A stretch of DNA of 64,000 bases from Cyanobacteria bacterium auto_48_18 (GTDB lineage: Bacteria; Cyanobacteriota; Vampirovibrionia; Obscuribacterales; Obscuribacteraceae): NCBI GenBank assembly GCA_036170915.1, contig JAVHQC010000025.1:32001-96000 (forward strand). Direction: 5' to 3'. Below, piece by piece: positions 18,001-24,000 of the stretch. Every line of letters begins with the position of its first letter. Position 1 is the stretch's first letter. The position numbers are program-made.

Positions 18001-21000
18001 AGATCGCGGTAGAAATAGGATTGACCCTCCACCTCACCAGGTCTTGGGGCTCTTGTGGTAACAGAGACCGAACGAACCAGCCCAGTCACCTGAGCCATGA
18101 CCAGATCGACAAGGGTGCCCTTGCCGACCCCGGAAGGTCCAGTCAATACAATTAAATTGCCCATTTTGAGGCGATGATTGGAACCGTCTTCTTTCTGACC
18201 GATTTTTGTAAGCGGTTCGCCGGCGTTCATATAAAACCCCCGCGAGTTTGATAAATTGTCAGCTATTAAACATCACAATGTCTCACCATGCAACCATTCG
18301 ACGCCCTATCAATTCGAGCAGTGTTAGCGGAAGCCCGCCCACTCATCGTCAACAGAAAAGTAGACCGGGTCAACCAGCTCGGCCGAGATGAAGTCTTGCT
18401 CACTCTCAGAGGAAAGACCGGCGTAACCAGCTTGTTTATTTCGGCTCAATCTATACATGGCCGCATGTGCCTGGTGCAAATGAACCAGACACTAAAAAGT
18501 AATGCTGGCAGAGAAAGTCAGCGTGACAAAGTTGATCCCGCCACCGACCGTTATGTCTCGCGCTACGGTAGTGGCAATTCGGTACCTAATTTTTGTTTGC
18601 TATTGCGCAAGCATCTAGCCGCAGCGACCCTTATTGCTGCGGATCAACCGCTCGGTGAGCGAATCATAGACCTTGTTTTTTCTTGCGTTGATGAAGTGGG
18701 CACTCAGTCAATCAAAATTCTTACTGCTGAAATTATGGGTCGTCACAGCAATTTGATTTTTTGGGAAAAAGAAAGCGGCAAAATTATTGCTGCTTCTCAC
18801 AACGTTACTAAAGATATGAGCAGGCAAAGAGAAATCGCTCCCACACTGCGTTACGAGCGGCCGCCGGCACAAGATCGGCCCAGTCTTTATACGGTCAATG
18901 AAGACGGTTTCTTGCAATTATTTAGTCAGTTCAAAACTAAAGCGCAAGAAAATCAGAGCACTGACTCTAGTTTAACTCTGCCACCAGCGGAGGTGACACC
19001 AGTCACTATCGAGCAATGGCTCATTGCCACCTTCACTGGTGCGGGAAGGCACCTTTGCGAAGAGCTTGTGTTGGCTAGCGGATTGGTTTCTGAAACCGCA
19101 CAAGCGATGATCATTGAAGACGCTGGTATGAAGCTCTGGAAGCGCATCGAAGCTCTAAGAGTAAACGAAAATTATCGACCATTTTTATTTACCGACTTGA
19201 GTCGTTATTCGGTTTTAGGATGGTATCCAACTGCGGCACCGACAAAATCGTTGCCTTCAGTCAATGATTTGATTGAAGAATATTTCCGCTCTTGCGAACT
19301 GACTGAGCAAGCCAATCAACTGCGCGAACGCCTGCGTGCTGATTTAGCTCAGGAACTGGCAAAAATTGATGCTCGCATGAAAATGGCTGAGCAACACGTT
19401 TTGCCGGGCGCCGATGTACATTTGCAAAAGAAGTTAGGCGATTTGATTTTAGCCAATTTGACTGAAATTAAACCTGGTCAGGAAGTGCTTGAGACTGAAG
19501 ACCTCTTCGGTAATTCAGGAAAAATTTCAATCAAACTCAACGCTGCCTTAACTGGTGCCCAGAACGCTCAAATGTATTATCGCCAATACGCAAAATCGAG
19601 AGCGCGTCATGCCACTGCCAGCCAATCGGTCAACGAAGCCAGCGCGCGCAAACTAATGCTGGAAGGCCATTTGGTCAAGATTAACAACGCCAAGGACATT
19701 TTTGAACTCAGGACACTGAAGGAAAATTTGACCGGCCGCAAAGCCCATGAAATTGCCAAGCCAAAAGCCAAAGCAAAAAAAGGCAATGACAGCAAAATTC
19801 TTTCAGTCAATTCAACTGATGGCTGGACAATTTATGTGGGTCGCAATCGTCTAGAAAATGACTATCTTTTGTCGCGGCTGGCGCAACCGAACGATCTCTG
19901 GTTCCACGTTCTCGGTCAAGGTGGTGCCCATGTACTGGTTCGCATTCCTTCGTCAAAACAAGAACCACCCATGAGCACAATTTTGGAAGCGGCACAAATA
20001 GCTGCGAGGCTTTCAAAAGCCAGTCACGGCGCCAAGGTTAGAGTGGTTTATACCCAGTGCAAACATGTGCGAAAGCTGGCCAAAGACAAACCTGGCCTGG
20101 TCAAATATGAGCAAGAAAAAACGGTAGAAGTAGACACTTCACAGCCCATGCCAAAACCAATGAAGCAACTATTTAGCACTTAAACAGCCGCTTATACATA
20201 CTAAATTACCAGGCAAAATACCAGGCAAACTACATCTTACGGAAGAGCGCTACCACTGTGCCCTGTATGGTCAAAGTCTGGTTGCCAGTGACAAAAATTG
20301 GCTCCATTTCGCTGTTGGCAGGCTGCAAACGGAAACCGCCACGCTCTTTAAAGAAACGCTTCAGTGTAGCGCTGCCATCTTCTAATAATGCCACCACAAC
20401 TTCACCATTATTGGGTGAAGGATTTGGTTTTACGATGACGAAATCGCCATCGTAAATGCCGTCTTCGATCATAGATTCGCCTTTGACTTGCAAAGCAAAA
20501 CAACCGGCTTCTGTGTACCGGCTATCAATATCTAAATATTCCTGACCTTCTAAAGCGGCATCAATGGGTTGACCGGCGGCAATGGCGCCAGCCATGGGAA
20601 TGCCTCTCGCTGTTAGTGCATTTGACTGAGCTAAGGCGCTGCTTGCTTTCTGAGATACAGATGCACGCCGACTATCTAGCGAAATTACGTCAGCAGGGTC
20701 GCCGTTATTTTGATCAGCTAATTCGGTGCCGCCAGAACAGTGCTTCAGGCCTTCGGCCAGCACTCGCAAAGAGCGATTTAAACCTGGCTCCCAGTGAACC
20801 AGGCCCTTTTTCTTCAACGCCGCCACGTGCTGGTGCACAGTCATTCTATTTTTCAGACCAAGAGCACTGGCCAACTCAGCCAGCGTCGGCGGATAACCAT
20901 GCTCGTCGCTTAATTTGACGATCAAATTGAGCACATCTTGTTGTCTGGCTGGCAGCGGCTTCTCTGTATCTAGCAACTTAATTCTCGACCTCAATTTGGC

Positions 21001-24000
21001 TCAACCATACGTAAGTATAGTATCGATTGCCAAACTTGTCGAGTATTTAGCGAGTATTCAGCGATTTTTTTTAGAAGATACGTCCGGGGCTAGAGAATAT
21101 TCTTGCCCAGGGCTGACTGCACCAGGTCTACGGCCAGTTCGGCAGTGCGATTTCTGATGTCTAATGTCGGATTGAGTTCGACAATGTCGATAGAGCGCAC
21201 CATTTTGGTATCAGCCAGAAGCTCAAGAGCAAAATGACTTTCACGATAAGTCAGACCGCCACGTGAGTCGGTGCTCACTCCTGGCGCCACATCAGGATCA
21301 ATTACGTCTAGATCAAATGACACGTGCAGACCATGAATGTCTCCGCCAATTGATTTTAGAGCCTGGCCTGTGATGCTCTTAATTCCCTGTTCATCAACAT
21401 CTCGCATGGTGAAAGGCAAAACACCTGATTGCCTGACGAGATCAGTTTCGGCGGTGTCGAGATCGCGAATGCCGACTAAAGCGCACCGGCGTGGCTGCAC
21501 TTTGGGCGAAAAACCGTTGAGCTTAACCAGGCTCTCATCACCCTGGCCAAGTGAAATAGCAAAAGGCATTCCGTGTACATTGCCGCTTGGTGACGTATCA
21601 GGAGTATTGATGTCGCCATGTGCGTCGAACCAGACCAGACCAAATTCTTCTTTACGTTTGCGATAATAATTCGAAACTCCAGCAATACTGCCTATTGCCA
21701 GCGAATGGTCACCACCAATTGTAATGGCTACAGTATCGTTTTCCAGGGCTTGCTCTACAGCTTCAGCCACAGCCTGACTGACTTTGGCAATCTCAGGCAC
21801 ACAACGACTGTGTTTCGGTTCAGTGCTCTTTTCCCACCAGGTGAGCACCTCCGGCACAGCAATGGAAACTTCTTTCTCAACTGTATATCCAAGGGCTTTA
21901 ATTCGACTTACCAGTCTTGCAACCTTCATGGCGCCTGGTCCCAGAGCAACTCCAGCGTGCGGACCACCAAGATGTATTGGGCAATAAATCAAAGTTACTG
22001 CTCGGCTACGCTTGATTGCGTTGCTTTCGACAACCGCATTGCTACTGACTTTGGGTGCTGACACAAAATCCTCCAGTGATCTCGTATGAATTAAGCAATG
22101 TACTCAGGGCGAGGCTGCAACTACGTTTTAGCTTTGTGACAATGTACGTAGCTGAGCGGCCCTTGAGCATATAGTGTTAATAGCTTAGTGTATAATCTTG
22201 GCTTGGTTTTTGTCTTGAAAAAGCCCTGAAATGGCCAAATTCAAATTGAATCCAATAGTTCAAAGTGTAGTCATCGAATAGTAGAGGTTGGGAAAGTGTT
22301 GCGACCGTTGATCAAGGTTTTCTTCTTAGCAGGCGCCGCATTTGAAGTGGCTAGAGAACGCGTCGAGGACGCACTTGACACCTTTACTGCCAAAGCCGGC
22401 GAATACAAATCAAGTGAGTCTGATCGAGTGCAAAAAACTCGCGACAAAGTAAAGCAAATGCTCAATGAAACGAGCCAAAATATTTGGCAACGTTCTGATG
22501 TTCTGGAAGGTCAAGTGCGCGAAAAAATTCGCCGCCAGGTTGCTGATTTTTCTCTCGGTGCTCTTGGTGACTCTACAGAAATCAACGAATTGCGTGCAGA
22601 AATAGCAACCTTAAGAGCTGAGATTGCCGACATCAAACAAAAATCACCGGTCTGAACCGTCAGTTCGACAGCTAACTAATTCATCATCGGCTTCAACCGT
22701 GGTCATGCATGAGCGAACCTCAGCCAGCATCAAAAAATCGGCTTACATCTGAGCTAGCCAAATCAGCAAATAAAGACACTGGTGCAGACTTAGAGACAAT
22801 TCAGAGCGCTCCGAGCGGTCAGAGCATTCAGGGCGCTCACAGCGACGATGAGCCTAAGGTGCTTCAGGGCGGATACGACCCAGCCCTGGCCGATCAGGCC
22901 ATTCGCCTCAAAGTTTTACTGCGCGATAAACGCTTCTGGAAAAGTCTTTCCACACTTTCTCTATTGGCTTCAGCGGCCGCTATGGACCGCCTAGTGGGTG
23001 CACGAAGCAAGAAAAGGCCTGCTGACGAATCGCGGCGGCGCAACGCACGCCTGGTGAAACAAGCGTTGATTGAAATGGGCGCCACTTTTATCAAACTGGG
23101 CCAGTTTCTATCTGTTCGCAAAGATATTATTTCTGAAGAATTAGCGGACGAACTTGTCTCTTTGCAAGACAGAGTGCCACCTTTCGGCATCGAGGCCTTG
23201 CGCAGCACCATTGAGCGCGAGCTGGGAGCGGCTCCGGAACAGCTTTTCAAAGAATTTGAAGAAACGCCGATAGCCTCGGCCTCCATTGGTCAAGTGCACC
23301 GCGCACGACTGCAAGACGGTCGCCCGGTAGTAGTAAAAGTACAACGCCCAGATCTGGCGGATATTTTTTATCGAGACCTTGGTTACATGCGCTTTATTGC
23401 TCGCATTGGCCCAGTGATTCGTCCGAAACAAGACTGGAGCGGGTGGCTTGCGCTCTCTGACGAATTCGGGCGCACGCTTTTTGAAGAAATCGACTATCTA
23501 AAAGAAGGTCGCAATGCCGATCGCATCAGGCAGATTCTCAAAGATCAAAAGACCATGCGAATTCCCAGAGTCTACTGGAAGCTCACCGGTCGCAAAGTGC
23601 TGACCCTGGAATATCTACCTGGGGTCAAAATCGACAATAAAGCTGAAATCATCAAGCAAGGCATAGACCCTGTGGCCATCGGCAATAACCTTGTTTCTGC
23701 TTATATGGAGCAGGTCTTGATGCACGGCTTCTTCCATGCCGATCCGCATGCTGGCAACTTAGCGGTAGGTCCTGACGGTCACATCGTTATATATGACTTT
23801 GGCATGGTGGGAGAAATTAGTCAGTCTCAACGCGAAGCCATTCTTGGATGTATCGCTTCTGTGATAAATGTTCACCCAGATGAGCTAATAAAAAATCTAA
23901 TTACCCTGGGCATTGTGCAGGAAGGCGCGAAACAAGAAACGATGGTGCGCGCGGTTCAGCCATTTATTGAGTATTACAAAGGCAAACAAATTAAAGAATT

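What a model noticed while it worked through the whole genome (the two positions that open the first line are those of the whole stretch)
20233..21030. New SOS box (ACCATAY-N4-RTATGGT palindrome) of Obscuribacterales LexA
A palindrome ACCATAY-N4-RTATGGT lies before lexA, umuDC (C11:136725) and imuA-imuB-dnaE2 (C26:17253), with weaker copies at ssb, the Wadjet operon and a nuclease-like gene g02276. It differs from the cyanobacterial LexA box and defines a small mutagenesis-centred SOS regulon; no site was found before recA or uvrA here.
Evidence so far: The matrix was seeded on these three sites; they are the top three distinct sites, 22-25 bits against 15.7 for the next. Before lexA in 16 of 24 order genomes at <=3 mismatches in a 110-nt window, 4 more with a TACAC-TTAC-ATATG variant by eye. 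A pattern search in 5 other genera gave 19 sites against 3 for the reversed control; the sites lie before imuA (G012, G027), an SplB-like radical SAM gene (G008, G006) and the g02276 homologue (G012). Paper searches: 0.
(Added by a program. Inside this text positions count along the whole contig: contig position 32,001 is position 1 of the stretch shown here. "Call 12" and the like, gene names such as g00115 and contig names such as C1 are that model's own, and its searches are not shown. The text may have been shortened before it was handed on; [...] marks where a part breaks off. The agent that wrote the report below was given it as the finding of a first reader that could run no searches.)

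Follow-up and report, generated by a model that had tools for sequence, protein, structure and literature searches.

The report
New LexA operator in non-photosynthetic cyanobacteria
A short DNA palindrome (core CATAC-N4-GTATG) sits in the promoters of DNA-damage genes across a lineage of non-photosynthetic relatives of cyanobacteria and is most likely the binding site of their LexA repressor, an undescribed version of the well-known bacterial SOS switch.

Summary
The site is real (window 21004-21021, over the lexA -10) and holds out of sample. With G000's genus excluded, an unseeded dyad count on imuA promoters returns ATAC-N4-GTAT in 22 of 23 genera. A matrix trained on other genera's imuA/umuD sites scores at least 12 bits before lexA (42/45 genomes), an ssb paralogue (29/30), a splB-like gene (27/27) and a dinG-like operon (19/20), against 1/298 random genes and 0/17 recA promoters. 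Corrections: the core is 14 bp (CATAY-N4-RTATG), the ACC/GGT flanks are optional, ssb is a top site, and the regulon is wider. The box keeps the N4 geometry of the Gram-positive and cyanobacterial boxes and is not confined to this order. Caenarcaniphilales-type LexAs carry CWTAY-N4-RTAWG, recA included; Vampirovibrionales-type LexAs keep CGAA-N6-TTCG. A separate LexA clade in another class has the same core in its own promoter (the only copy in two genomes). The box tracks the LexA recognition helix, which points to LexA as the binder. No binding or expression data exist. Not found in ten literature searches or two scan look-ups. New variant of a known kind.

The parts
20230..20994 (-). lexA ORF, 254 aa from the first TTG; real start probably the TTG at 20976. 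Winged-helix domain with helix 3 KNRMTVHQH, Ala140-Gly141 cleavage site, Ser174/Lys212 dyad (ORF numbering). The only LexA in G000.
   Evidence: start inferred from aligned upstream regions
21004..21021 (.).
21006..21019 (.). 14-bp core of the operator; minus strand reads TATAC-TTAC-GTATG, one change from CATAC-N4-GTATG, which lets it double as the -10 hexamer
21014..21019 (-). -10 hexamer TATACT of the lexA promoter, inside the left arm of the operator
   Evidence: 10 of 12 consensus matches, 17-nt spacer; same arrangement in relatives
21037..21042 (-). -35 hexamer TCGACA of the lexA promoter
20163..20193 (-). Terminator-like hairpin after lexA (consensus match only)
3796..4101 (-). Second ssb paralogue of G000, without a box (best 0.4 bits); internal negative control for the boxed ssb on contig C37

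Best explanation
The palindrome is the operator of the single LexA of this order (Obscuribacterales by the titles of records with the same LexA helix and site). A LexA dimer binds CATAY-N4-RTATG, best with (A)C..G(T) flanks, where it blocks sigma-70 promoters. It lies in the -35/-10 spacer at imuA, overlaps the -35 at ssb, and lies over the -10 at lexA, umuD and the dinG-like operon. After DNA damage, RecA filaments trigger self-cleavage at Ala-Gly and release lexA, imuA-imuB-dnaE2, umuDC, an ssb paralogue, a splB-like radical SAM gene, a dinG-like helicase with an exonuclease/GIY-YIG gene, a PD-(D/E)XK-like nuclease gene and, in some genomes, Wadjet. recA is outside the regulon, and in G000 so are uvrB, dinB, recN and ruvA. 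Shown here: sequence, position, conservation and co-variation with the LexA helix. Inferred: binding, repression and induction. The box derives from the Gram-positive-type CGAAC-N4-GTTCG that Vampirovibrionales-type LexAs still use, through changes at helix positions 39 and 41 (inferred).
For: Unseeded top dyad in imuA promoters outside G000's genus: ATAC-N4-GTAT in 22 of 23 genera, CATAC-N4-GTATG in 21 of 23. Arms near 2 bits, two central spacer bases 0.1-0.4 bits, the mark of a dimeric protein. At least 12 bits before lexA 42/45, ssb 29/30, splB-like 27/27, dinG-like 19/20, background 1/298. Seven of the top eight G000 hits lie before these genes. One LexA in G000, catalytic residues intact. 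Helix-box co-variation in 119 lexA loci: NRMT helix 78/83 within 1 mismatch of YTATACTTAYGTATG; TKGT helix 25/25 within 1 of CWTAY-N4-RTAWG; STST helix 11/11 within 1 of CGAA-N6-TTCG and none within 1 of the CATAY box. recA promoters follow the same split; 6 of 6 lexA-bearing STST genomes have the CGAA box, while two genomes of that family with no lexA match lack it. In G250 and G211 the only CATAY-N4-RTATG in the genome is in the promoter of their second lexA.
Against: No binding or expression data. Genome-wide counts are not clearly above permuted matrices: 5 hits at 18 bits or more against a mean of 1.25 and a maximum of 9; 9 at 15 bits or more against a mean of 6.85. Every site overlaps a promoter element, which adds conservation. 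7 of 30 umuD promoters lack the box, including all three of genus g10. 3 of 45 lexA promoters score under 12 bits. The helix-box pattern rests on about five related lineages, not independent events. The same core occurs with three different helices (NRMT, TKGT, KA[VP]GT), so the helix alone does not predict it simply.
Confidence: 0.9

Rival explanations
1. The palindrome is bound by another DNA-damage regulator (a repressor or activator that also controls lexA), and LexA binds elsewhere or nowhere.
For: LexA-independent and non-canonical SOS regulators exist (PMC8565304). recA lacks the box in 17 of 17 order genomes. The core occurs with three different LexA helices.
Against: The box changes when the LexA helix changes, at both lexA and recA. 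It is the only such site in two genomes and lies in a lexA promoter. It has the 14-bp N4 geometry of known LexA boxes. Sites overlap -10 or -35 elements, which fits a repressor. No other dyad stood out in the imuA or umuD promoters.
Confidence: 0.07
2. The palindrome is a by-product of promoter sequence (TTGACA, TGn, TATACT/TACCAT and a start ATG) conserved by descent, with no protein-binding role.
For: At lexA the left arm is the -10; at ssb the arm begins inside TTGACA; at imuA the right arm ends in a TG just before the -10. Genome-wide counts are near chance.
Against: The same 14-mer sits in several different registers relative to the promoter hexamers, in six unrelated genes. At imuA both arms lie in the spacer, invariant while the central bases and flanks vary. 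Only 1 of 298 random genes has it. The ATG in the lexA site is in frame and open in only 20 of 80 loci, so it is not a conserved start codon.
Confidence: 0.02
3. On origin (compatible with the best explanation): the Obscuribacterales and Caenarcaniphilales LexA is the former second paralogue (the KA[VP]GT clade), which took over the regulon after the first LexA was lost, as in the duplication-and-reuptake model.
For: Same core box; two LexAs with different boxes coexist in G250 and G211; the model is described in PMC8565304 section 20; recA outside the regulon fits an incomplete reuptake.
Against: Quick trees put Obscuribacterales with Caenarcaniphilales (SH-aLRT 86 and 92) apart from the second-LexA clade (97). 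The AU test rejects their union narrowly (p 0.04) and does not reject union with Vampirovibrionales (p 0.47). The careful tree did not finish.
Confidence: 0.25

Closest known systems
Cyanobacterial LexA box RGTAC-NNN-DGTWCB / AGTACWNWTGTACT (PMC2248561 table, PMC3091678 passages)
   Same: 14-bp palindrome, N4 spacer, inner TAC-N4-GTA; two Microcystis sites listed in PMC3091678 already have a CATAC left half; lexA and ssb are targets.
   Different: Outer two bases CA..TG instead of AG..CT; helix KNRMTVHQH instead of [KR]SPAP[IV]QSR; recA, a target in cyanobacteria, has no box here.
Gram-positive Cheo box CGAAC-N4-GTTCG (PMC2248561, PMC3091678)
   Same: 14 bp, N4 spacer, outer C..G and inner AC..GT. 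Vampirovibrionales-type LexAs and the first LexA of the other class still carry this type.
   Different: Half-site positions 2-3 are AT instead of GA; helix positions 39 and 41 are no longer serine.
Comparative-genomic SOS regulons of Bacteroidetes and Balneolaeota (PMC8565304, PMC7739468)
   Same: Regulon centred on error-prone polymerases, with splB, ssb, imuA-imuB-dnaE2, umuDC and a GIY-YIG exonuclease; found by the same promoter footprinting.
   Different: Different motifs (GGA-N5-TCC, CTAA-N5-TTAG, a direct repeat); those were validated by EMSA; the Bacteroidetes repressors are not canonical LexA, whereas this one is.

Membership tests
LexA repressor (canonical) | N-terminal PF01726 winged helix plus C-terminal PF00717 S24 domain | tested here: met
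   66 and 104.6 bits, both over cut-off; all 9 PDB matches are LexA
LexA repressor (canonical) | Ala-Gly cleavage site and Ser-Lys dyad | tested here: met
   IAAGQP, GESM, ATLKRF present; activity not tested
LexA operator (SOS box) | Fixed-spacer dyad in the lexA promoter (autoregulation) | tested here: met
   42 of 45 order genomes at 12 bits or more; 78 of 83 loci within 1 mismatch
LexA operator (SOS box) | Same dyad before error-prone polymerase and repair genes, overlapping promoter elements | tested here: met
   imuA 41/53, umuD 23/30, ssb 29/30, splB-like 27/27, dinG-like 19/20
LexA operator (SOS box) | Site before recA (usual, not universal) | tested here: not met
   0 of 17 order genomes, best 6.6 bits; present in Caenarcaniphilales-type genomes (CTTA-N6-TAAG exact in 8 of 13)
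LexA operator (SOS box) | Specific binding by LexA and RecA-dependent induction after DNA damage | not testable with these tools
   needs EMSA/footprint and expression data
Cyanobacterial LexA box RGTAC-NNN-DGTWCB | G at half-site position 2 (RGTAC) | tested here: not met
   A in 56 of 58 symmetrised training half-sites
Gram-positive Cheo box CGAAC-N4-GTTCG | GAAC..GTTC core | tested here: not met
   0 of 83 NRMT lexA promoters match CGAA-N6-TTCG exactly, 3 at one mismatch

The most novel reading that the evidence does not exclude
The CATAC specificity arose twice in this phylum: once in a second LexA of another class and once, without gene duplication, in the ancestor of Obscuribacterales and Caenarcaniphilales. 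Both came by losing the serines at helix positions 39 and 41. Together with the GAAC and cyanobacterial GTAC boxes this gives a two-position code (Ser39 reads G at half-site position 2; Ser41 reads A at position 3). It would be a case of a whole regulon switching motif in place, with recA dropped in one branch and Wadjet repeatedly recruited.
Probability: 0.3. Interest if true: 0.68.

Novelty: new variant of a known kind. Interest (0 to 1): 0.5.

Why it matters
It gives a first SOS regulon for a sister class of photosynthetic cyanobacteria, and fills a gap in the series of N4-spaced LexA boxes (GAAC, GTAC, ATAC). New LexA motifs turn up regularly (17 by 2021 according to PMC8565304), so the motif alone would not surprise a specialist. 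The added value is a natural experiment inside one phylum: three boxes in one class, two LexAs with two boxes in single genomes of another class, and recA inside the regulon in one branch and outside in its sister. That makes the open question of how LexA changes its motif testable with a few purified proteins and helix swaps. It also offers a repressor-operator pair likely orthogonal to E. coli LexA.

Tried and rejected
Genome-wide counting as proof: pattern counts in the window and genome are at chance level, permuted matrices reach the real counts, and the loose 15-mer does not separate lineages. The 16-mer count of 289 sites against 54 for the reversed pattern in 41 genomes is supportive, but the control has another dinucleotide make-up. 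Leaderless start as the cause of the conserved ATG: rejected. recA, uvrA, uvrA2, uvrB, dinB, recN, ruvA and the second ssb as members in G000: no site above 8.2 bits. Wadjet as a core member: 3 of 12 within 300 nt, one more 890 nt upstream across an intervening gene. C33:203532 (one mismatch to the 18-mer) did not reach 11 bits with the out-of-sample matrix and was dropped. A stricter 18-mer pattern for Caenarcaniphilales-type genomes hit only 2 of 5. The cyanobacterial control did not return its known box by the exact-dyad count on 30 lexA promoters, so that count misses degenerate boxes. The careful LexA tree did not finish. No RNA holder was listed for the locus. Scan look-ups gave nothing relevant. 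No structure or complex was predicted.
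Full report
Observation. The window holds a canonical lexA on the minus strand (20230-20994; PF01726 and PF00717 over cut-off). It is the only LexA DNA-binding domain in G000 (genome 86% complete) and has the Ala-Gly site and Ser-Lys dyad. ACCATACGTAAGTATAGT lies at 21004-21021, over a TATACT -10 that is 17 nt from a TCGACA -35. Counts alone prove nothing: 5 window matches at up to 3 mismatches against 4.3 expected, and 4 genome sites at up to 1 mismatch against a mean of 4.7 for 60 permuted palindromes.

Out-of-sample test. imuA was found in 74 of 81 order genomes. 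I took upstream DNA for 54 of them (29 of the 30 best, one lying at a contig end, plus 25 picked to cover genera); one gave no sequence. With G000's genus excluded and no seed, the top palindromic dyad was ATAC-N4-GTAT in 22 of 23 genera and CATAC-N4-GTATG in 21 of 23. 41 of 53 promoters match the 18-mer within 2 mismatches, and 0 of 53 match the reversed control. For umuD (30 of 32 hits) it is 23 of 30 against 0 of 30. The misses include all three genomes of genus g10; one miss (G013) looks cut by my window. In 23 imuA sites, one per genus, the ten arm positions are invariant or nearly so while the two central bases carry 0.1-0.4 bits. The real core is therefore 14 bp, CATAY-N4-RTATG, and the ACC/GGT flanks are a preference.

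Regulon. A matrix from 22 imuA and 7 umuD sites of other genera (one umuD site spurious) ranks in G000: imuA 25.1 bits, ssb on C37 25.0, lexA 20.4, a radical SAM gene 19.6, a gene on C22 18.8, one intragenic hit 16.6, umuD 16.5, a DinG-type helicase followed by an exonuclease/GIY-YIG gene 15.8, and jetA 13.9. The C22 gene has no Pfam match and is PD-(D/E)XK-like by language-model features. Permuted matrices give a mean of 1.25 and up to 9 hits at 18 bits against 5 real, so the identity of the genes is the evidence, not the count. Orthologues carry a site of 12 bits or more before lexA in 42 of 45 genomes, ssb in 29 of 30 (the 30 best hits; 16 of 17 genera), the splB-like gene in 27 of 27, and the dinG-like gene in 19 of 20 (one genome left out for a partial match). 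The background is 1 of 298 random genes. The second ssb paralogue, in this window near 3796-4101, has none. recA has none in 17 of 17 order genomes. In G000 uvrA scores 8.2; uvrA2, uvrB, dinB, recN and ruvA score 3.1 or less. jetA has a site within 300 nt in 3 of 12 genomes, and a fourth has one 890 nt upstream across another gene. The 16-mer MCATAY-N4-RTATGK gives 289 sites in 41 genomes against 54 for the reversed pattern.

Not a promoter artefact. The box sits in different registers: wholly in the spacer at imuA, starting inside TTGACA at ssb, over TATACT at lexA and over TACCAT at umuD and dinG. The ATG in the lexA site is in frame and open in only 20 of 80 loci.

Who binds it. They fall into three helix types. 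NRMT[VI]HQH (83 loci, including all records titled Obscuribacter or Obscuribacterales) has YTATACTTAYGTATG within 1 mismatch in 78. TKGTLQYH (25, including the three titled Caenarcanales or Caenarcaniphilales) has CWTAY-N4-RTAWG within 1 mismatch in 25. STSTIH[HY]H (11, including the five titled Vampirovibrionales or Vampirovibrionaceae) has CGAA-N6-TTCG within 1 mismatch in 11, and never the CATAY box within 1. recA promoters follow the same split: CTTA-N6-TAAG is the top dyad in TKGT genomes (8 of 13 exact), the CGAA box is present in 6 of 6 lexA-bearing STST genomes, and it is missing in two genomes of that family where no lexA was found. In one TKGT genome the variant box also precedes a umuD/umuC-like pair and a ruvB-like gene (genes judged by eye). 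In another class of the phylum (probably Sericytochromatia; name inferred from recall, not from a call), G250 and G211 have two LexAs. One has the STST helix with GAAC-N4-GTT[CT] at its promoter and a near match at one recA. The other has KA[VP]GTIQDH with CCATAC-N4-GTATGG at its promoter, the only CATAY-N4-RTATG in either genome. G175 has a LexA of this second type with the same site, one of two in its genome. The box thus follows LexA proteins, which is the strongest argument short of a binding assay. These are about five related lineages, not independent trials.

Evolution. Two quick trees join the Obscuribacterales and Caenarcaniphilales LexAs (SH-aLRT 86 and 92) and keep the second-LexA clade apart (97). 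The AU test rejects their union narrowly (p 0.04) and accepts union with Vampirovibrionales (p 0.47); the careful tree did not finish. Convergence is favoured, but takeover by the paralogue stays open. I aligned the helices to E. coli LexA, whose DNA-contacting residues 39, 41, 42, 44 and 45 are listed in PMC3091678. Serine 39 goes with G at half-site position 2 (CGAAC, AGTAC) and Asn, Thr or Ala with A (CATAC; T also in the TKGT variant). Serine 41 goes with A at position 3, and Ala, Gly or Met with T. This code is an inference.

Comparison with what is known. Passages of PMC2248561 (motif table) and PMC3091678 give RGTAC-NNN-DGTWCB and AGTACWNWTGTACT for cyanobacteria and CGAAC-N4-GTTCG for Gram-positives. 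The new core has the same length and spacer, and differs from each by two bases per half-site. Passages and section 20 of PMC8565304 state that 17 LexA motifs were known, name splB, ssb, imuABC, umuDC and a GIY-YIG exonuclease as SOS members, and describe duplication and reuptake. I also read passages of PMC7739468 and PMC13416735. Ten searches (listings and abstract starts only, except the five papers named) showed no description of this box or of an SOS regulon in these lineages. The library lacks most subscription journals, I opened no supplements, and CollecTF and RegPrecise were not searched, so absence from print is not proven. Two look-ups of earlier scan notes gave nothing relevant.

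Verdict. A real, well-conserved regulatory palindrome, about 90% likely to be the LexA operator. It is a new variant of a known kind, wider in regulon and in taxonomic range than first stated, and closer to known boxes than first stated. Interest 0.5.

Noticed in passing
L135-L147, L239, L343 (Caenarcaniphilales-type lexA promoters): lexA looks leaderless (TTGACA, 17 nt, -10, 6 nt, ATG), with one box in the spacer and a second imperfect box 2 nt later that ends in the start ATG.
   Followed up: partly
L425, L428, L433 (G250, G211, G175): A distinct LexA clade (helix KA[VP]GTI[QT]DH; about 21 close relatives) has no imuA-type cassette beside it; two copies lie next to the mraW/ftsI/mur cluster. 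It seems to regulate little besides itself.
   Followed up: partly
L532-L541: Genomes of that other class carry two recA genes; in those with the STST LexA only one recA has the GAAC-type box.
   Followed up: partly
families f3, f5-f8: lexA was found in only 0/2, 1/11, 1/19, 0/9 and 1/12 genomes of these families (f5-f8 mostly small genomes) with this query, while recA was found in nearly all.
   Followed up: no
L430, L432 (family f14): A long-branched LexA-like protein (helix RSPRSASIL) with a TATAC-N4-GTATA/ATAC-N5-GTAT-like dyad just before its start, possibly another undescribed box.
   Followed up: no
L155:1169-1190; L169: GACAGCATGCGGGTTGTGCT is shared upstream of recA in G000 and G010 (different genera); it may be the site of another regulator of recA.
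   Followed up: no
L520, L522, L531, L528: The box lies before Wadjet jetA in 3 of 12 genomes from three genera, and upstream of an intervening gene in a fourth, although Wadjet is patchy (12 of 81 genomes): possible repeated recruitment of a defence system into the SOS regulon.
   Followed up: partly
window 21090-22064: An arginase-family gene lies directly upstream of lexA on the same strand; its 3' end seems visible upstream of lexA in several relatives too.
   Followed up: no
window 14259-15737: ORF with a long HEHS-repeat histidine tract, resembling LarC nickel-insertion proteins (label recalled, not tested).
   Followed up: no
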